Shown here piece after piece: positions 31,573 through 41,560 of a stretch of DNA of 64,000 nucleotides; positions within the stretch are counted from its first letter, which is position 1; each line of letters starts with the position of its first letter. The DNA lies in assembly GCA_000004985.1 (NCBI GenBank), contig GG738892.1. One strand, written 5' to 3'. A model generated the notes under the pieces. The model saw only the letters and a program-made list of their open reading frames with translations. It ran no database searches and was not told the origin of the DNA. The DNA is from Naegleria gruberi. Lineage: Eukaryota. Both the position numbers and the translations under genes were made by a program.

Positions 31573-32577
31573 TTGATGAAGACAAAAACAGAAGAGTTTC
31601 AACATGATTACAATGAAAATGATCAATTGTATTATCATGATCTTTTAAATCTAACTCCGAATGAATTCTTAGCCAAATATCATCACAATAATAGTAATAA
31701 CAATAATACAACAACAACATGCAATGAAAGTGTTAATTTACAAGTAGAACAAGAACATCCAGAAAGCAAATCCAACGTTTTTATTTCCTCCGATGTAATG
31801 TGTTATATCATCATGACCTATCTAGATTGGAAAACAATATTTACAAGTTGTTTATTGGTGAATAAGGAGTTTTTCAGAAGAATTGCCAATAATCGTCAGC
31901 TTTTTATTCAATTATTTAATGAATTATTTGTGATGGATCAGAAAATGATTGATAGTATGACAAGTAGATCGACATTTAAAAAAACTTTAACTAGTAATAA
32001 TAATTTCATTGTAAATGGAGGTATTGGAATACCAAATGAGCATTATCACATTTGGAGAGATGGTTACAATAGCTATTTATATGCAACTGGTAAGAGATTT
32101 AAGCAATCTTTACAAAAGCATCATGTCAATAATTCGATAATGACTGATGCCAAATTGAGATTAATTAGAGAAAAGTGGAATACTGCCATTTCTGGAAAAA
32201 GCCAACAAAAGAAAAATCAAGTGAGATCTAAAAGGGATGAGAATAAATCCTTGTTAAATCTCATCAAGAAGATTATTAAGGATCGATTATTTATGAGAAA
32301 GTACTTTGATGGTGATAGGTTTAAATCTAAGAGATTTGAATTTCGTGAACAGATTTATTTTGAAAAGAAACTTCAAGTTCATGATTCTCTTCTTCGTTAT
32401 ACTGATCACAAGAAGTATTTAGCTAAATTGGAGGAAGCCAAGAAATTGTACAACAATCAAGACACATTGGAGAAACAAATTGAAAGTTTAATTCATTCTG
32501 AATATGAAAAGCCAGAGATTGAGGAGATTATAATTGGAGATTTACATGACAATAGTGGACCAACTGATCTATTTCTN
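31573..32577 (+). CDS. F-box-like protein, 5' part only. The ORF runs into the assembly gap, so it is incomplete.
   Basis: An F-box-like segment ISSDVMCYIIMTYLDWKTIFTSCLLVNKEFFRRI follows a poly-N/T low-complexity N-terminus. The ORF is open up to the N run. An in-frame coding-like tail appears after the gap (33344..33460) and may belong to the same gene. Confidence 0.4.
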
Positions 32578-33343
32578 NNNNNNNNNNNNNNNNNNNNNNN
32601 NNNNNNNNNNNNNNNNNNNNNNNNNNNNNNNNNNNNNNNNNNNNNNNNNNNNNNNNNNNNNNNNNNNNNNNNNNNNNNNNNNNNNNNNNNNNNNNNNNNN
32701 NNNNNNNNNNNNNNNNNNNNNNNNNNNNNNNNNNNNNNNNNNNNNNNNNNNNNNNNNNNNNNNNNNNNNNNNNNNNNNNNNNNNNNNNNNNNNNNNNNNN
32801 NNNNNNNNNNNNNNNNNNNNNNNNNNNNNNNNNNNNNNNNNNNNNNNNNNNNNNNNNNNNNNNNNNNNNNNNNNNNNNNNNNNNNNNNNNNNNNNNNNNN
32901 NNNNNNNNNNNNNNNNNNNNNNNNNNNNNNNNNNNNNNNNNNNNNNNNNNNNNNNNNNNNNNNNNNNNNNNNNNNNNNNNNNNNNNNNNNNNNNNNNNNN
33001 NNNNNNNNNNNNNNNNNNNNNNNNNNNNNNNNNNNNNNNNNNNNNNNNNNNNNNNNNNNNNNNNNNNNNNNNNNNNNNNNNNNNNNNNNNNNNNNNNNNN
33101 NNNNNNNNNNNNNNNNNNNNNNNNNNNNNNNNNNNNNNNNNNNNNNNNNNNNNNNNNNNNNNNNNNNNNNNNNNNNNNNNNNNNNNNNNNNNNNNNNNNN
33201 NNNNNNNNNNNNNNNNNNNNNNNNNNNNNNNNNNNNNNNNNNNNNNNNNNNNNNNNNNNNNNNNNNNNNNNNNNNNNNNNNNNNNNNNNNNNNNNNNNNN
33301 NNNNNNNNNNNNNNNNNNNNNNNNNNNNNNNNNNNNNNNNNNN
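32578..33343. other. Assembly gap (766 N).
   Basis: An uninterrupted run of n characters. All ORFs in the track containing X runs are artefacts of this gap. Confidence 0.99.
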
Positions 33344-33738
33344 TACATGGACCCCTTTCACATGGAAAATATTGTGGAAATATTTGATAGACTTGGAATT
33401 GTTCTGGATGTGTATTATTATGAAAGGTATAAAATAGATGAGTATGTTTTCGATTGGTAAAATACGCAATCTATCGAAATGAAAATAATAAAACCAAATC
33501 TTTGTAACAGTATTGACAAATTTCGTTGATTACCACTGTAAAAAATCGTATATGGTAGAAGCTCACTCAACATATTCTTCATCCAAAAGGCTGGGGTTGA
33601 ATGCTGCCTTTTAGGTCATGGACTTTATTGAACTCTTGTCCATTTAAAAACTTGTTTACTCGGTAATTTATTACAGAATTCTCCTGAACAAAATAATGAG
33701 ATAGTGTAATTACATATTTTACAGTCTGGTTTGGTTTT

Positions 33739-35347
33739 TTATTGAATATGTTGGCTTTCTTGGTAAGTTGGAGTAGCACTGAATCGTTGATAACCCTTAA
33801 TTACCTTATTGATAGCATCGAGCATATCCTTTTCGGAAACTGTCTTTCTTCTTGCTCGAATAGCAAACATACCAGCTTCTGTACAAACAGATCTAATTTC
33901 AGCACCTGTAGCATTAGGACACAAACGAGCCAATAATTCATATCTGATATCCTTGTCAACGTTCATATTCTTGGCGTGAATTCTGAAAATGTTAGTTCTT
34001 GCTTCAAGATCTGGAAGACCAAATTCAATCTTACGATCCAATCTACCAGGTCTCATCAAAGCAGGATCCAGAATATCTGGTCTGTTAGTAGCCATGAGAA
34101 CCTTAATATTACCACGAGCCTCAAAACCATCCAATTGGTTGACAATTTCAAGCATAGTTCTTTGAACTTCATTGTCACCACCAGCACCATCGTCAAAACG
34201 AGTACCACCAATAGCATCAACTTCATCAAAGAAAATAATACAAGCTTTACGTTGACGAGCCATTTGGAACAATTCTCTTACCATACGAGCGCCTTCACCG
34301 ACATATTTTTGAACCAATTCAGATCCAATAACACGAATAAAGGTAGCATCGGTTCTGTTAGCAACAGCTCTAGCAAGCAATGTTTTACCAGTACCTGGTG
34401 GACCATAGAGCAAGACTAATTTTTCAATTAAAGTAAAAACTCAAATAGTGACACTTACCTCCTTTTGGTGGGTCAATACCAAGACCTTCGAATTTTTCTG
34501 GATGGAGAAGTGGTGTCTCAACAACTTCACGGATTTTATCAATTTGCTCCTTAGATCCACCAATATCATTATATGTAATATCTGGTTTTTCTTCCACAGT
34601 CATCATTGTAACACTGGCATCAATTTTTGGAGGGAGTGGAATACGAATTTGATATTTTGTACGATCAACACCAATACGCATACCTTCTTCAATATCTGTT
34701 GGTGCTACGTTTTCTCCTAATCCTACAACATATTTAGCAATTTGACGAACATTGATGAGGTACTTTGGTTCCTCTTCATCATCATCAATAATTTTTGTAC
34801 ATCTAGCAACTTGCAATGGCATTTCATGTTGAAGAGTTGCTTTATCTTGTTGAATATCCCAAAGACTTGGATTTGCCAAGCCAGTATCAGATTCCTTTAC
34901 ACCACATAATTCATTTACTTCTTGTACCATTTTCTTAAGGCCATCTTCTGTTTCTTTTCTATGATATTGTTGATTCAATAATTATAAAATTGATCCAAAT
35001 TAATCCGAACAATAAAATTGTAGCAAGTTGATCAGGTTGTAAATCATCATTTTCAGTCATTAATGTTAGTGTTATGAGTTATTGTTATTAACGAAAATAT
35101 AGTAGATATACATTATTATACAATATAAGTAATATGTTAAGATTGTACAAAATCTAAGCTACTTTGTTTTGAAGCTAGCGACTTACATTTTTCCAGAGTA
35201 TGGTCCTTGTCCATATCGTTTAATCAATTTAATTTCTTCGGCATCCAATGGATTTATAGGTGTATCTTTCTTTTCATCTTCCTTGTTATCACTTGATTCT
35301 GGTTTCTTTTCCTCTGGTTTCTTATTGTCTTGTTCTTGTTGAGACAT
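33739..35347 (-). CDS. PSMC2: 26S proteasome regulatory subunit 7 (Rpt1, AAA-ATPase), 3 exons.
   Basis: Minus-strand exons are 35187..35347, 34459..34958 and 33739..34415, with introns of 228 and 43 nt. The protein is near-identical to human PSMC2 over long stretches ([91 protein letters not shown]-terminal KFSATP). The exon junctions reproduce human YSRQIKQVEDD (ours YSGKIKETEDG) and PPKGVLL.GPPG. Confidence 0.9.
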
Positions 35348-35513
35348 TTTTTGATTTTGTGTTGTATGGTGTGTTTGAAGTTAAGTGCTAAAAATAAAAT
35401 TGTGTTTCCGTATTTTTAGTCTTCTGCATGATCCAAAGCTAACATCAGCTGATTAGAAAACAAAATGTTGATGATGGATTTGTAATAAGATTGAATTCAT
35501 TTATTGTTTGATT

Positions 35514-37801
35514 TTAATCATAGTCATTGAAACTTTGTTCCTCATTTTCAAAGGATCCAAGTATTTGCTCCAATTCTTCACTTGGCATGAATACTTCACT
35601 GCCATAAGTTGGTGGAATATTTGTCACGGTTGGAAGAAAGTTATGTTGTAAATGTTGTGGATTAATATCAGCAAAGGATGGTGGTAAATGAGTTTGATTG
35701 ATCATATTTACATCAAATGAATGTTGTTGGGATTGGATTGAATTATTTCTCATAGAAGATGCTTGAACACTGATAGTGTTACAAATTTGGGAAAGAAGTT
35801 CTGATACAGAGGGATCATTAAGCGTATTATTTGTTGGATTGATGGGAATAAATGCTTGTTGAGGTGATTGGAATTCTCCAGATGAGCTAGAACTAGTGTA
35901 CGGTGATGAGGTTGAGGAAGAGGATGAAGACATGATTTCTTCAAATCTTGGAGGTTGAGGATTAACATTTCCAAATGGTAAGTTAGGATTCATAGTTGGT
36001 GCTGTTTGAGTGTTAATTACAGGTTGTTGGGTAGGTGGTTGTTGTCTCTTTGCAATTTGGGATGTTAATTCCTCAATTGAATTGACAGTATTGGTTCCTT
36101 CTATTACTTCTGCTTGTTCTTTCATAATTATTCCACAAAACTTGTTAACTCTTCCATATCTTGTTCCTAGTATTTTCAAAGCTCTTAATCCTTTAGCTAC
36201 ATAATCGTAATAGTCAATACCCTCTGCTAAATTAACTCGTTTTCCAACTCTTATCATTCTAATTATTGACAAGTGAACTTTACAAGCGCCAGCCACAACA
36301 CTGGTTAAGGCTACAGGTACAACTGGGAATGTTTCTTTTGTAGTTTCATCAATAATCTTGTTGGCAGATACTTCAATTAAGTGACCTCGAATACCAGCCT
36401 CAATTAAAATTCTCATTCGAGAACCATGATAGACCATACTGTCAGTAATGGTGGCTAATTCTCGTTGTTCAGGAGTAAACGAAAATGTTTGATTGTGAAG
36501 AGTAAGGAATGAACAAACGCTATCTAGTAATCCAAGATAACTAATGACGTTTTGAGGAGTAATTTTCTGTTTAGCAATTGTCATATATTCCTCTGGCATT
36601 TGTCTACCAGTGGCATATCTATAAATTAATGTCAGTCTTGTACACATGAAATGTTCATCTTCAGTTGAGTGATAATTTTGTGAATCTATACTCAATCGTG
36701 TAACTGTTTTAACCTTGTCCAAATTTTTCATTTCAGGTGTCAAATTATCATGATCCAACAAGTTCTTTTCTTTGAAATAGTAATCTACATTATTTAAATA
36801 GAATCTTGCTCTACTATCATCTCCTTCTCCTGCAAAAAAGTAACTAATGTAATTAAATGTACTAACTACAAAGAAATCGTCACACTTATCGAATAGGGAT
36901 GATAAAAGTTGTTTTGAAATATTGATATCTTCCATAGCTCGTTCTCGTCTTCCTAATCGTTGTTCAACAAGGGCTTGAATAGAAAATACTAAAGCCATCA
37001 ATTCTGTATTATTATATGGATTTTCTGTAAAGAGAAAATCTTCCAAGACTTTTCTTCCAACAACAGGATGCCCTCCTGAAACAATATTGAAATAAGAATC
37101 AATAGTATTAATTTTCAAAAATTGTTTGTAGAGAGAGTAATTCTCGCTTAATAAATTATTCAATGTTGATGGAATGAGCATTGTTAATTTCTTTCTTAAT
37201 TCAAAATCTTGTTCTGGATTTGTAGGAACAGGATATGGATCTTTTCTTTGAGAGTATTTCAATCTACTTCCTTGTATTTCATTCTCCGAACTTATTAATA
37301 AATTACTTGCTTGATTTTGAGAAATTGCCAATTGATTTGTTGATGATCCTGGTGCTCCTGTATCCTTCTTCTTTTTGTTTTTACCTCCTCTAATTCTTCC
37401 TTTCTTTTTTGGTTCTCTATATATACATTCTCTTCCTCTTAGTTGGCATTCACTGCAAATTGGTAATTTCTATTTAAATAATAATAATTAATATTAATTT
37501 CAAAAGTATGCAATTTATACTTACCTTGTCACACTACACAATGATAAATTAATAATCATACAAGTTAAATTCCTTACCTTTTTATGCTAAACAATAAATA
37601 AATTAATAATCAATTAATTGATAAAATCCTTACCATACTTCTACAAGTTGCACAAGCAATAGGATGATATGAAAAATTTGGATCTCTTGGTGTATCATCA
37701 TTATCAAATTCGTCATCATCATCAAAATCATTAGCTTGTTTTCCAACAAGAGATTCTGAGCCGAAAGTTGACATCGGATTGAATTCTCCAGATGAACTCA
37801 T
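35514..37801 (-). CDS. Gal4-type Zn(II)2Cys6 binuclear-cluster transcription factor with a fungal-type middle homology region, 4 exons including two proposed 9-nt microexons.
   Basis: Minus-strand exons are 37634..37801, 37578..37586 (cataaaaag = HKK), 37525..37533 (tgtgacaag = CDK) and 35514..37469. The spliced product reads CATCRSMHKKCDKKLPICSECQLRGREC, which is exactly C-x2-C-x6-C-x6-C-x2-C-x6-C. Each microexon is flanked by an AG acceptor and a GTAAG donor. The downstream 605-aa ORF carries Gln/Pro/Ser-rich activation-like tails. Confidence 0.65.
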
Positions 37802-39324: not shown

Positions 39325-39382
39325 ACATAGAGTAAAAAGCCAAAAATGGAGTCATAGGGAATCGAACCCTAGACCTTCTGCA

Positions 39383-39413
<31 letters not shown>

Positions 39414-39468
39414 AACCCCTACTATTTTGTTTTTTAAATATACTACTCCATTTGTTAGATTACAATGA
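39325..39468. repeat. About 145-bp segment containing tRNA-Ala, duplicated at 41466..41608 in the same orientation.
   Basis: The 73-nt tRNA is identical in both copies and both flanks are highly similar (agtaaaWagccaaaaatgg... and ...ataacccctactRttttgttWtttaaa-atatactactccatttgtta). Confidence 0.7.
39347..39419 (-). tRNA. tRNA-Ala (anticodon UGC), copy 1.
   Basis: A 73-nt cloverleaf: GGGGUUA acceptor stem with the G3:U70 alanine identity pair, D-arm GCUCAGUUGGUAGAGC, anticodon loop UUUGCAU and T-arm GGGUUCGAUUCCC. CCA is not encoded. Confidence 0.85.
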
Positions 39469-39622
39469 GCTCTGTCTCGCGTTATTGATCTAGTGTGTAC
39501 TAAAAACTTGATTATAATTTGAATAACATTGAACCTTCAAGCCAATTAGCATAAAAAATGAAACCATTTACACTTCATTCACAAGGTGGGTTTTTTCTCA
39601 TGACTATTTGATTCCAATAAGA

Positions 39623-40756
39623 ATGAAAGCAATATTTGCTGATGATATTTGTGTTGAAATATTTTCCTTCTTATCCGAAGATTGTAAATCGATGATGATT
39701 TATTCTCTTGTTTCAAATCAGTGGTTAACAATCATTCGAGAAAGGTCGAATATTTCTCTTTGCATCAACACAAGAAAAATGGTCAACCATGAATTGTTGA
39801 ATTATTTTACAAAGATAAAGTTTGCGCCATCAACATTTAATGACCTGGGATTTAACAAGATCAATACGAAACGATTAAAAGAGATTGAAATAATGTATAA
39901 TCGGCTTGGTGTTGAAGGAGCAAAATTGATTGGAAAATTGTCTCAGTTGACTATTTTAAATATCAGTAATAATCAGATTGGGGATTTAGGAGCTCAATCA
40001 ATAAGTGAATTGAAACTACTAAAGGAGCTTTTTGCTGATAACAATCAAATTGGCAATACAGGAGTCAGTTTTATAAGCCAATTGAAACAATTACTCAAAC
40101 TTTCACTGATGGGAAATTATTTTGACAATGAAGGTGTTTATTCAATTAGTAAAATGGACCAATTGACTGAACTGGATATAGGAACGAACAAAATCGATGA
40201 AAAAGGGGCTCAATATATTGGTGAAATGAAACAATTAAGGAAACTTTTCATTTCTGGAACTCAAATTGGTTCAGAAGGAGCTAAAGCCATCAGTGGATTA
40301 CCAAATTTGACCAATTTAAATATTGGATACAGTCAGATTGGGATTGAAGGTGCAAAATATGTTTGTGGAATGCATCAATTAACTCAACTTGGAATTGGAA
40401 ACAGCAGAATTGGAGTTGAAACAGCTAAACTAATTGGTCAATTGAAACATTTAACTTTTTTGGTGATTGAAGGTAATAATATAGGTGATGAGGGTGCAAA
40501 ATATATTAGTGAAGCTAAATTGAAGAAATTAGTAATTAGCAATGGAAGAATTGGTGGAGAAGGCGCTCAATATATTGCTAAATTACATCAATTAACTAAT
40601 CTTGACATTAGTTGTAATAATGTGGATACAGCAGGTGCTAGATCAATAAGTAAATTACCCAATTTGACAATACTCGATATAAGTGTCAATAAAATTGGAT
40701 CAGGAGGAGCAAGATTGATCAAAGGAATGACCCAATTGACCAAAGTCATTCAATAA
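39623..40756 (+). CDS. F-box-like / RNI-type leucine-rich-repeat protein.
   Basis: An N-terminal F-box-like segment (ICVEIFSFLSEDCKSMMIYSLVSNQWLTII) is followed by at least 10 repeats of the 24-28-aa ribonuclease-inhibitor-type LRR (LxxLxIsxNxIGxxGAxxIsxLxx). Confidence 0.65.
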   Translation: MKAIFADDICVEIFSFLSEDCKSMMIYSLVSNQWLTIIRERSNISLCINTRKMVNHELLNYFTKIKFAPSTFNDLGFNKINTKRLKEIEIMYNRLGVEGAKLIGKLSQLTILNISNNQIGDLGAQSISELKLLKELFADNNQIGNTGVSFISQLKQLLKLSLMGNYFDNEGVYSISKMDQLTELDIGTNKIDEKGAQYIGEMKQLRKLFISGTQIGSEGAKAISGLPNLTNLNIGYSQIGIEGAKYVCGMHQLTQLGIGNSRIGVETAKLIGQLKHLTFLVIEGNNIGDEGAKYISEAKLKKLVISNGRIGGEGAQYIAKLHQLTNLDISCNNVDTAGARSISKLPNLTILDISVNKIGSGGARLIKGMTQLTKVIQ

Positions 40757-41487: not shown

Positions 41488-41523
41488 TGGAGTCATAGGG
41501 AATCGAACCCTAGACCTTCTGCA

Positions 41524-41554
<31 letters not shown>

Positions 41555-41560
41555 AACCCC
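41488..41560 (-). tRNA. tRNA-Ala (anticodon UGC), copy 2.
   Basis: Sequence identical to the copy at 39347..39419. Confidence 0.85.

What the first reader, a model, noticed from the sequence alone, without database searches (positions are those of the whole stretch)
37525..37586. Two consecutive 9-nt microexons complete a Zn(II)2Cys6 binuclear cluster
Between the first exon (ending ...CATCRSM) and the main exon (starting KLPICSECQLRGREC) lie two 9-nt segments, cataaaaag and tgtgacaag. Each is bounded by an AG acceptor and a GTAAG donor. Including both gives CATCRSMHKKCDKKLPICSECQLRGREC, which is exactly the Gal4-type spacing C-x2-C-x6-C-x6-C-x2-C-x6-C. Skipping either one destroys the spacing or a Cys ligand. 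Consecutive 3-codon microexons are rare and are usually missed by gene finders.
Basis: seen in the sequence. Interest (0 to 1): 0.6.

Follow-up and report, generated by a model that had tools for sequence, protein, structure and literature searches.

The report
Two 9-nt exons complete zinc cluster
Two 9-base exons on the minus strand of this Naegleria gruberi window do complete a Gal4-type zinc-cluster DNA-binding domain, but the public annotation already has exactly this gene model; the new detail is that the first mini-exon comes from a species-specific intron that looks like a copy of its neighbour.

Summary
On the minus strand, exon 1 (37801-37634) ends CATCRSM. It is followed by a 47-nt intron, cataaaaag (HKK, 37586-37578), a 44-nt intron, tgtgacaag (CDK, 37533-37525), a 55-nt intron, and then the main exon (KLPICSEC...). 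Of 207 possible GT..AG paths, only this one gives the six-Cys motif. The Pfam Zn_clus score is 40 bits with both microexons and 18-24 bits if either or both are skipped.

The window is from Naegleria gruberi NEG-M, which is not a fungus. The exact 713-aa product is already in GenBank as XP_002673234.1 (NAEGRDRAFT_71642), so gene finders did not miss these exons.

Three orthologues (N. lovaniensis, an N. fowleri-like assembly and a metagenome relative) keep the CDK microexon at the same position and phase. All their differences in the 18 nt are synonymous, and their introns cannot be aligned. In all three, HKK is fused to exon 1, so the intron before HKK is specific to N. gruberi and was most parsimoniously gained.

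That intron matches its neighbour at 37 of 47 positions, including an exact 15-mer (p<2e-4), which suggests a local intron copy. I could not obtain direct RNA evidence. The finding is correct but already annotated, so interest is modest.

The parts
37634..37801 (-). Exon 1 (ATG at 37801; 56 codons, ending ...PIACATCRSM). It encodes Cys50 and Cys53 of the zinc cluster.
   Evidence: Reading through the donor gives a stop after 7 codons (VRILSIN*), as seen in the ORF-style call P0049.
37587..37633 (-). Intron 1 (47 nt, GTAAGG...TTTAG, phase 0). It is specific to N. gruberi and is probably a copy of intron 2.
   Evidence: It is absent at this position in L001, L002 and L003. The tree places N. gruberi as sister to L003, so one gain explains the pattern better than two losses. 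It matches intron 2 at 37 of 47 aligned positions.
37578..37586 (-). Microexon A, cataaaaag = His57-Lys58-Lys59. It restores the x6 spacing between Cys53 and Cys60.
   Evidence: The same three codons (caY aaR aag) are fused to exon 1 in the three orthologues.
37534..37577 (-). Intron 2 (44 nt, GTAAGG...TGTAG, phase 0), at the position conserved in all four orthologues.
37525..37533 (-). Microexon B, tgtgacaag = Cys60-Asp61-Lys62. It carries the third zinc ligand and is conserved as a 9-nt exon in all four orthologues.
   Evidence: It is included in the annotated N. lovaniensis protein and in the transcript-hinted N. fowleri models.
37470..37524 (-). Intron 3 (55 nt, GTAAGT...AATAG, phase 0), at a conserved position. 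A N. fowleri paralogue also has an intron here.
35514..37469 (-). Main exon (KLPICSECQLRGREC... through the TAA stop). It encodes Cys67, Cys70 and Cys77, the basic PKKKGRIRGGKNKKKK stretch, a Cep3-like helical domain (residues ~165-540) and a low-complexity tail.
37598..37612 (-). Copy 1 of the exact 15-mer TGATTATTAATTTAT, 11 nt upstream of the 3' splice site of intron 1. It contains a TTAAT motif that I take to be branch-site-like.
37544..37558 (-). Copy 2 of the same 15-mer, 10 nt upstream of the 3' splice site of intron 2.
   Evidence: These are the only two exact copies in the 64-kb window.

Best explanation
The region is the 5' part of Naegleria gruberi gene NAEGRDRAFT_71642 (XP_002673234.1, UniProt D2VRM9). 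This is one of about 78 Zn2Cys6 (Gal4-type) transcription-factor genes in this amoeba. Its DNA-binding domain is encoded in four pieces: exon 1 (Cys1 and Cys2), a 9-nt exon (HKK spacer), a 9-nt exon (Cys3-Asp-Lys) and the main exon (Cys4 to Cys6). All three introns are tiny (44-55 nt), phase 0 and have strong AAG|GTAAG-type donors. I infer that they are recognised by intron definition and removed constitutively, probably one after another, since a 9-nt exon leaves little room for splicing factors to sit on both its sides at once. Both microexons must be included to make a functional six-Cys cluster. The CDK microexon is old, being shared by the N. gruberi, N. lovaniensis and N. fowleri lineages. 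The HKK microexon is young. It arose when an extra intron appeared between Met56 and His57 in the N. gruberi lineage, without changing the coding sequence. That intron is most likely a copy of the neighbouring intron 2, inserted 9 nt upstream. What is shown: the sequence, the motif completion, the conservation, the identity to the public model, the lineage specificity of intron 1 and the similarity between the two introns. What is inferred: that both microexons are actually spliced in vivo, the order of splicing, and how the intron was copied.
For: Anatomy and the single 713-aa open frame. Pfam Zn_clus scores 40 bits with both microexons, against 24, 20.6 and 18 bits when A, B or both are skipped. 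It is the only one of 207 splice paths that gives the motif. The exact protein is in GenBank and UniProt as an N. gruberi protein, and four other window ORFs also match N. gruberi NEG-M proteins exactly. Orthologue DNA from N. lovaniensis (L001), an N. fowleri-like assembly (L002) and a metagenome relative (L003) keeps TGY GAY AAG as a 9-nt exon between two introns. The 18 nt match at 15-17 positions with only synonymous differences, while intron lengths vary (41-70 and 44-61 nt) and the introns cannot be aligned. The N. lovaniensis annotated protein and the N. fowleri Augustus models built with Trinity transcript hints contain ...MHKKCDKKLPICSEC. An independent assembly is identical. The AlphaFold2 model is confident over residues 41-80, pLDDT 87-96, and the PDB profile search hits the Gal4, Lac9, Put3, Hap1, Ppr1, Leu3 and Cep3 zinc clusters. 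For intron 1: it is present only in N. gruberi; the tree is ((N. gruberi, L003) at 85% bootstrap, (N. lovaniensis, L002)), so one gain against two losses. Intron 1 against intron 2 gives 37 of 47 identical columns, 1 of 20,000 end-fixed shuffles and 0 of 20,000 Markov-generated introns reach the observed score, and the shared 15-mer exceeds the null maximum of 13. In a second shuffle test, this pair gave z = 4.8 and none of 5,000 shuffles reached its score, while every between-species intron pair gave z <= 1.8.
Against: I could not reach any RNA-seq, EST or cDNA sequence of N. gruberi spanning 37469-37634. Two protein searches and two metagenome scans found no intronless copy. I do not know how the GenBank model was derived, so it may not be independent experimental evidence. 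The intron-gain polarity rests on four taxa and an NJ tree rooted with distant paralogues. The similarity between introns 1 and 2 was judged against shuffles and only about 16 intron-like sequences from the same window. A shared functional element, such as a branch site or splicing enhancer needed next to microexons, or gene conversion, could contribute to it.
Confidence: 0.9

Rival explanations
1. The microexons are alternatively spliced on purpose. All junctions are phase 0 and both exons are 9 nt, so skipping A, B or both stays in frame. That would give isoforms with a crippled zinc cluster (wrong spacing or missing Cys3) but an intact helical domain. Such isoforms might act as non-DNA-binding or dominant-negative regulators.
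For: All skipped variants remain open in frame. The skip variants score at or below the Pfam cut-off, so they would be functionally different. The donor of the new intron (ATG|GTAAGG) matches the consensus less well than the two AAG|GTAAG donors. The plant microexon study reports that introns flanking microexons tend to be detained and spliced after transcription.
Against: There is no transcript evidence for any isoform. The N. fowleri annotation allowed evidence-based alternative transcripts (--alternatives-from-evidence). In the table passages I retrieved, the orthologue appears only as .t1 with the complete domain, and the paralogue's several listed transcripts all carry the complete domain. 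The purely synonymous conservation pattern is what constitutive coding exons would show.
Confidence: 0.1
2. The four-exon model is a homology-driven artefact. The real mRNA uses another path, for example exon 1 joined directly to the main exon, or intron retention, and the protein has a degenerate five-Cys cluster or the gene is decaying.
For: Direct joining of 37634 to 37469 is in frame. At least three public gene models in this family have errors in this very region. How the GenBank model was derived is unknown.
Against: Retention of intron 1 gives a stop after 7 codons. Both 9-mers have canonical AG acceptors and GTAAG donors. The encoded HKK-CDK is conserved with synonymous-only changes across four species whose introns have diverged beyond alignment. 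95 of 162 retrieved family proteins show the same ...H[KR][KR]CD[KR]xLP... segment in a complete cluster. The rest of the protein is 68-70% identical to its orthologues, so the gene is under purifying selection.
Confidence: 0.03
3. About the extra intron only: intron 1 is ancestral and was lost in the other lineages, and its likeness to intron 2 reflects shared splicing signals or gene conversion rather than a recent copy.
For: The shared 15-mer lies 10-11 nt from each 3' splice site and contains a TTAAT motif that I take to be branch-site-like, so function could constrain it. Taxon sampling is thin (four orthologues), and 15% of bootstrap replicates give a different topology.
Against: Both recovered topologies need two losses against one gain. 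None of the paralogues examined has an intron at the Met|His position. The similarity runs end to end over the whole intron (37 of 47), not just the putative branch site. Intron 3 of the same gene is no more like introns 1 and 2 than shuffled sequence is (z = -0.3 and 1.1), and no other intron-like sequence in the window aligns as well.
Confidence: 0.3

Closest known systems
Gal4-type Zn(II)2Cys6 binuclear-cluster transcription factors (Pfam PF00172; Gal4, Lac9, Put3, Hap1, Ppr1, Leu3)
   Same: It has six Cys with C-x2-C-x6-C-x6-C-x2-C-x6-C spacing. The Pfam hit is above the cut-off. A profile of the family hits the solved Gal4, Lac9 and Put3 DNA-binding domains. A basic stretch follows the cluster.
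   Different: The host is a heterolobosean amoeba, not a fungus. This was already known: Zn_clus is the largest transcription-factor family in Naegleria, with 78 genes in N. gruberi (Herman et al. 2021, PMC8296547, Table S3). The model shows no helix directly after the cluster where Gal4 has its coiled-coil dimerisation element (that feature of Gal4 is from my own knowledge); residues 88-146 are low confidence.
Cep3 (CBF3 subunit B) and the fungal 'middle homology domain' that pairs with Zn2C6 (CeGAL family, PMC10141177)
   Different: None of the 70 family members scanned matches Pfam Fungal_trans or any other middle-homology family by sequence. Sequence identity to Cep3 is 7-10%.
Conserved 9-nt microexons inside the AP2 DNA-binding domain of plant transcription factors (Yu et al. 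2022, PMC8831610)
   Same: These are also 9-nt coding microexons inside a DNA-binding domain that are conserved in position and phase across species. Adjacent microexons are reported there too, for example 5 nt and 12 nt in peptidase M1 genes. They are often misannotated.
   Different: The kingdom and the domain differ. Here the flanking introns are very short (44-55 nt), and one of the two microexons is lineage-specific.
Short exons inside fungal Zn2C6 domains that cause mispredicted genes (Rhizopus I1CF81, an exon coding for 2 amino acids; CeGAL paper, PMC10141177)
   Same: A very short exon inside the zinc-cluster coding region causes loss of a Cys in automatic models. The same error occurs in N. 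fowleri FDP41_010721, which skips a 12-nt QCDK exon.
   Different: In the window gene itself the public model is correct.
Intron gain by intron transposition or copying of an existing intron (reviewed by Yenerall & Zhou 2012, PMC3443670; cases in Mycosphaerella and Oikopleura)
   Same: The new intron is specific to one lineage, is inserted precisely without altering the coding sequence, and is significantly similar over its full length to another intron.
   Different: The donor intron is only 9 nt away in the same gene. It does not fit the classic AGGT tandem exon duplication, because the new intron copies the neighbouring intron and not adjacent exon sequence. A tandem duplication of [HKK + intron] would need an additional exact 9-nt deletion. 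The mechanism is not established.

Membership tests
Zn(II)2Cys6 binuclear cluster domain (Pfam PF00172, Gal4 type) | Six cysteines spaced C-x2-C-x6-C-x5-12-C-x2-C-x6-8-C | tested here: met
   Cys are at residues 50, 53, 60, 67, 70 and 77 of the spliced product. This is the only one of 207 splice paths that gives the motif.
Zn(II)2Cys6 binuclear cluster domain (Pfam PF00172, Gal4 type) | Score above the Pfam gathering threshold for Zn_clus | tested here: met
   The full protein scores 34.7 bits and the domain segment 40 bits, against a cut-off of 21. Skipping microexon B or both microexons falls below the cut-off.
Zn(II)2Cys6 binuclear cluster domain (Pfam PF00172, Gal4 type) | Sequence similarity to experimentally solved Zn2Cys6 DNA-binding domains | tested here: met
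   The family profile hits Gal4 (E 5.7e-7), Lac9, Put3, Rsc3, Hap1, Ppr1, Cep3 and Leu3.
Zn(II)2Cys6 binuclear cluster domain (Pfam PF00172, Gal4 type) | Binds two Zn(II) ions and DNA (CGG-type half sites) | not testable with these tools
   This needs biochemistry.
Fungal Zn2C6 + middle homology domain transcription factors (CeGAL / Fungal_trans) | Sequence match to Fungal_trans (PF04082) or a related middle-homology family | tested here: not met
   The window protein has no such hit at E <= 1. None of the 70 family members has one at E <= 0.01.
Fungal Zn2C6 + middle homology domain transcription factors (CeGAL / Fungal_trans) | Helical domain with the Cep3-type or Upc2-type fold downstream of the zinc cluster | tested here: met
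   [not shown]
Coding microexon (<=15 nt internal exon) | Internal exon of 15 nt or less, bounded by a canonical AG acceptor and GT donor, that keeps the reading frame | tested here: met
   Both exons are 9 nt and phase 0: TTTAG|cataaaaag|GTAAGG and TGTAG|tgtgacaag|GTAAGT.
Coding microexon (<=15 nt internal exon) | Position, size and phase conserved in orthologues | tested here: met
   This is met for microexon B (CDK) in all four orthologues. It is not met for microexon A (HKK), which is fused to exon 1 in the other three.
Coding microexon (<=15 nt internal exon) | Inclusion shown in mature mRNA (split reads or cDNA) | not testable with these tools
   No N. gruberi transcript sequence was reachable. 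The only support is indirect: N. fowleri models built with Trinity transcript hints include the CDK exon and a paralogue's 12-nt QCDK exon.
Intron gain by copying an existing intron (intron transposition-like) | The intron is present in one lineage only, with gain as the parsimonious polarity | tested here: met
   The intron is found only in N. gruberi. Both recovered tree topologies require one gain against two losses. It is absent at that position in the five paralogues examined.
Intron gain by copying an existing intron (intron transposition-like) | The new intron is significantly similar to a donor intron | tested here: met
   37 of 47 columns are identical. 1 of 20,000 end-fixed shuffles and 0 of 20,000 Markov-generated introns reach the observed score. 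In a second shuffle test z was 4.8, while between-species intron pairs gave z <= 1.8. The background set of real introns was small.
Intron gain by tandem genomic duplication of an AGGT-containing exon segment | The new intron is a copy of the immediately adjacent exonic sequence, in register | tested here: not met
   By reading, intron 1 aligns with intron 2 at an offset of 54-56 nt, not with the adjacent exon. A tandem duplication of [HKK + intron 2] would leave a second HKK copy, and none is present.

The most novel reading that the evidence does not exclude
Intron 1 (37633-37587) is a recent, precise copy of the neighbouring intron 2, inserted 9 nt upstream in the same gene of the N. gruberi lineage. 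This would be a clean and datable case of spliceosomal intron gain by intron copying (transposition-like or templated repair) in a deep-branching eukaryote. It would also have created a new 9-nt microexon inside a DNA-binding domain without changing the protein.
Probability: 0.5. Interest if true: 0.5.

Novelty: already known. Interest (0 to 1): 0.3.

Why it matters
The splice model matters mainly as a quality check. It shows that a 64-kb raw-sequence read can recover a very hard gene structure, but the same structure has been in GenBank since the N. gruberi genome annotation, and zinc-cluster factors are already known to be the largest transcription-factor family in Naegleria. Three side results could matter more.

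1. One of the two microexons was created by a lineage-specific intron that looks like a copy of its neighbour. Well-documented recent intron gains with an identifiable source are scarce: a 2012 review counted 14 intron-transposition cases (PMC3443670).
2. The same short stretch of the zinc cluster is split at at least six different positions among Naegleria paralogues. Several public models of N. fowleri and N. lovaniensis lose a Cys ligand because a tiny exon is skipped or a false intron is called. Counts of this transcription-factor family based on domain hits are therefore probably too low.
3. The helical domain has the Cep3-type fold. The pairing of a zinc cluster with a middle-homology-like domain, described as fungal-specific, therefore also occurs in Heterolobosea.

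Tried and rejected
- I looked for direct transcript evidence and found none. The full-length protein search returned only genomic or annotated proteins. A second search with the N-terminal 89 aa found only P0049. P0008 covers only the C-terminus. P0049 and P0157 are exon 1 read through into the intron on genomic contigs, not transcripts.
- A scan of metagenome contigs for an intronless ATGCAYAARAARTGYGAYAARAARYTNCC found nothing. The search for related loci on metagenome contigs with the orthologue alignment found nothing confirmed by tblastn.
- Literature searches for Naegleria plus microexon, and Naegleria plus Zn2Cys6, found nothing relevant. The N. gruberi genome paper (doi 10.1016/j.cell.2010.01.032) is not held, so I could not establish how model 71642 was built.
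- I rejected a fungal origin: exact matches to N. gruberi proteins.
- I rejected an assembly artefact: an independent assembly is identical.
- I rejected a dispersed introner-like family as the source of intron 1: the 15-mer occurs exactly only in the two introns in this window, and near matches are at chance level. One 64-kb window cannot exclude copies elsewhere in the genome.
- I rejected classic AGGT tandem duplication: the new intron does not copy adjacent exon sequence.
- I checked whether the N. gruberi introns resemble the sister lineage's intron at the conserved position, and they do not (z = -0.4 and 0.3).
Full report
**1. The observation.** The feature lies on the minus strand.
- An ATG at 37801 opens a 168-nt exon that ends ...CCT ATT GCT TGT GCA ACT TGT AGA AGT ATG (PIACATCRSM) at 37634.
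- Next comes a 47-nt intron (GTAAGG...TTTAG), then cataaaaag (37586-37578, His-Lys-Lys).
- Next comes a 44-nt intron (GTAAGG...TGTAG), then tgtgacaag (37533-37525, Cys-Asp-Lys).
- Next comes a 55-nt intron (GTAAGT...AATAG), and the main exon starts at 37469 with AAA TTA CCA ATT TGC AGT GAA TGC.

All junctions are phase 0. The spliced product is one open frame of 713 aa ending at a TAA; the exon runs to 35514 including the stop.

**2. Is it more than chance?** I enumerated every GT..AG path from the exon 1 donor to acceptors at or near the main exon, allowing introns of at least 30 nt and up to three internal exons. There were 207 paths, 60 stayed open locally, and exactly one gave the complete six-Cys motif.

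Pfam Zn_clus (PF00172, cut-off 21 bits) scores the domain segment as follows:

| Variant | Score (bits) |
|---|---|
| Both microexons included | 40 |
| HKK skipped | 24 |
| CDK skipped | 20.6 |
| Both skipped | 18 |

Reading through the first donor hits a stop after seven codons. This is visible in an ORF-style call on an independent contig (P0049...CRSMVRILSIN).

**3. What the locus is.** The protein's only close relatives are from Naegleria. An exact-sequence look-up shows that the 713-aa product, including both microexons, is GenBank EFC40490.1 / XP_002673234.1 (NAEGRDRAFT_71642, UniProt D2VRM9, 'predicted protein [Naegleria gruberi]'). Four other ORFs in the window also match N. gruberi NEG-M proteins exactly, on a 342,059-nt scaffold.
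- The window is therefore N. gruberi NEG-M, a heterolobosean amoeba with 33% GC, and not a fungus.
- The public annotation already uses this four-exon structure, so the remark that gene finders usually miss such exons does not apply to this gene.
- Zn_clus is already documented as the largest transcription-factor family in Naegleria: 78 genes in N. gruberi and 56-58 in N. fowleri (Herman et al. 2021, PMC8296547, Table S3).

**4. Comparative evidence for the splice model.** I fetched the orthologous DNA from N. lovaniensis (L001), from an N. fowleri-like Logan assembly (L002) and from a JGI metagenome relative (L003). The L002 peptide IACSSCRCMHKKCDKKLPICSEC equals the published N. fowleri models g3031 and g8450.

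All three have TGY GAY AAG as a 9-nt exon between an AG acceptor and a GTAAGT donor, followed by an intron and then AAA YTR CCN (KLP...).
- Across the four species the 18 nt encoding HKK-CDK match at 15-17 positions, and every difference is synonymous.
- The flanking introns vary in length (41-70 and 44-61 nt) and are no more alike than shuffled sequences, with z <= 1.8. This is the signature of coding exons under purifying selection.
- The annotated N. lovaniensis protein contains CRSMHKKCDKKLPICSEC.
- The N. fowleri models, built with Augustus using Trinity transcripts as hints, contain CRCMHKKCDKKLPICSEC.
- An independent environmental N. gruberi assembly (L006) is identical to the window across the whole region.

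In all three other species the HKK codons are fused to exon 1 (...ATG CAC AAR AAG|GT). They have one microexon, not two. The intron between Met56 and His57 exists only in N. gruberi.

A neighbour-joining tree over 340 ungapped columns, rooted with paralogues, gives ((N. gruberi, L003), (N. lovaniensis, L002)). The N. gruberi + L003 pair has 85% bootstrap support. The only alternative recovered (15%) also requires two losses against one gain. None of the five paralogues whose DNA I inspected has an intron at that position. The second microexon (CDK) is therefore old, and the first (HKK) is a recent by-product of an intron gain that left the coding sequence untouched.

**6. The new intron looks like its neighbour.** Introns 1 and 2 align end to end with 37 of 47 identical columns. 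They share an exact 15-mer, TGATTATTAATTTAT, placed 11 and 10 nt from their 3' splice sites.
- With the splice-site ends held fixed, 1 of 20,000 shuffles reaches the observed global score.
- None of 20,000 Markov-generated intron-like sequences does.
- The longest shared word in that null was 13 nt.
- Among 17 intron-like GTAAG...YAG segments in the window (these two and 15 others), the two introns are each other's best match: score 25, against next-best scores of 19 and 11.
- The 15-mer occurs exactly only in these two places in the 64 kb.
- As controls, intron 3 of the same gene and all orthologous intron pairs, including the close N. lovaniensis / N. fowleri-like pair, are not significantly similar.

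The simplest reading is a recent copy of intron 2 inserted 9 nt upstream. It does not fit classic AGGT tandem exon duplication. A tandem duplication of [HKK + intron 2] would need an additional exact 9-nt deletion. Reverse splicing followed by reverse transcription, or templated repair, are possible routes (mechanisms as reviewed in PMC3443670), but nothing here discriminates between them. A shared functional element or gene conversion remains a rival explanation.

**7. Family context.** An exhaustive HMMER search found 279 relatives at E <= 1e-3.

Genomic DNA of paralogues shows that this ~10-codon stretch is split in several different ways:

| Split | Phase | Where seen |
|---|---|---|
| HK\|QCDK\|K (a 12-nt microexon) | 0 | N. 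fowleri, L004 |
| inside the Arg codon before KCDK | 2 | N. lovaniensis, L005 |
| inside the Asp codon after Cys3 | 1 | L007, L008 |
| none | - | second gene in L004 |

Public models err here.
- NCBI FDP41_010721 skips the 12-nt exon. It reads CRKMHKKLPSC and has no Pfam hit, whereas the transcript-hinted models read CRKMHKQCDKKLPSC.
- C9374_007813 splices out the second half of the cluster.

The same problem is documented for fungal Zn2C6 genes, including a two-codon exon in Rhizopus (PMC10141177).

**8. The protein.** AlphaFold2 with a 70-sequence family alignment gives a confident zinc-cluster segment (residues 41-80, pLDDT 87-96) and a confident all-helical domain (residues ~165-540, pLDDT above 90). 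These are separated and followed by disordered low-complexity regions.
- By sequence, neither the window protein nor any of the 70 family members scanned matches a Pfam middle-homology family.
- The family profile hits the Gal4, Lac9, Put3, Hap1, Ppr1, Leu3, Cep3 and Rsc3 zinc clusters in the PDB.
- The protein therefore works like a Gal4-type regulator with a Cep3-like helical domain. It is a member of the Zn_clus family. Membership in the fungal middle-homology family is supported by fold only.

**9. How it most likely works (inferred).** With introns of 44-55 nt, splice sites are probably paired across introns (intron definition), so a very short exon is not the obstacle it would be under exon definition. 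This is general knowledge about splicing, not something tested here. Both microexons end in AAG and are followed by GTAAG, which gives strong U1 complementarity. Because only 9 nt separate an acceptor from the next donor, the three introns are probably removed one after another rather than at the same time. Plant microexons show a related tendency toward detained flanking introns (PMC8831610). Constitutive inclusion is the expected outcome, because only the full product has a working cluster. In-frame skipping isoforms are possible in principle but have no support.

**10. Novelty and verdict.** The observation and interpretation are correct, but the exact gene model is already public, and zinc-cluster factors in Naegleria are already described. 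I found no paper discussing microexons in Naegleria. The added value from this check is the lineage-specific origin of the first microexon through an intron that resembles its neighbour, the variety of intron positions in this hotspot with the resulting misannotations in sister species, and the Cep3-like fold of the C-terminal domain. Direct RNA evidence for N. gruberi is the one missing piece.

Noticed in passing
L004:2274-2285 (N. fowleri VFQX01000007.1, gene FDP41_010721): The NCBI model (P0005) skips a 12-nt microexon, caatgcgataag (Gln-Cys-Asp-Lys), that lies between ...CRKMHK|gtaagt and ttcag|KLPSCNRC. The model therefore reads CRKMHKKLPSC, lacks the third Cys and has no Pfam Zn_clus hit. 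The transcript-hinted models of Herman et al. 2021 (g10989, g10885) include it.
   Followed up: yes
L005:184-560 (N. lovaniensis PYSW02000031.1, gene C9374_007813): This paralogue encodes KCDKKLPSCSECIDKGKECCYRTPKKKGR contiguously after a single phase-2 intron. The NCBI model (P0006) calls an intron inside it (...CSE|YAPSEQ...) and removes the second half of the zinc cluster. The reading frame further downstream also needs re-examination.
   Followed up: partly
L001:3001-5256 (N. lovaniensis gene C9374_000095, the orthologue): The annotated protein P0004 has the correct N-terminus with the CDK microexon. However, it lacks about 50 conserved residues of the helical domain (MAWYFRYKREGDD where the orthologues have MALVFSIQALVEQRFG...YFAGEGDD). 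This is probably a falsely called intron.
   Followed up: no
[not shown]
   Followed up: partly
L007:1170-1225 and L008:1480-1530 (metagenome ERZ27315067 paralogues); L004:4914-4990: Intron positions in the first half of the zinc cluster differ among paralogues. L007 and L008 have a phase-1 intron inside the Asp codon after Cys3 (introns of about 38-47 nt). The second N. fowleri gene in L004 has no intron there. Together with the other cases this makes at least six different arrangements within about 10 codons.
   Followed up: partly
window 39347-39419 and 41488-41560, minus strand: There are two tRNA-Ala(TGC) genes with identical Rfam scores about 2.1 kb apart, on either side of an ORF at 39608-40756(+).
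   Followed up: no
window 32001-34000: GC content drops to 0.198 here, against about 0.33 elsewhere. The dip overlaps a 604-aa ORF at 31573-33387(+), which probably encodes a low-complexity, AT-rich coding region.
   Followed up: no
window 34500-35350, minus strand; L001:5348-7006; L002:5154-6844; L006:2643-4251: Gene order is conserved. The proteasome ATPase Rpt1/PRS7 gene (Pfam OB_PRS7 + AAA) lies immediately downstream of the zinc-cluster gene in N. gruberi, N. lovaniensis and the N. fowleri-like assembly. The DNA polymerase epsilon B and PRKCSH genes lie upstream in the latter two.
   Followed up: no
window 37370-37415, minus strand (residues 82-97): A basic motif, PKKKGR[IT][RK]G[GS]KN(KKKK), directly follows the sixth Cys. 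It is invariant in the four orthologues and recurs in several paralogues. It could be a nuclear localisation signal or an AT-hook-like DNA contact.
   Followed up: no
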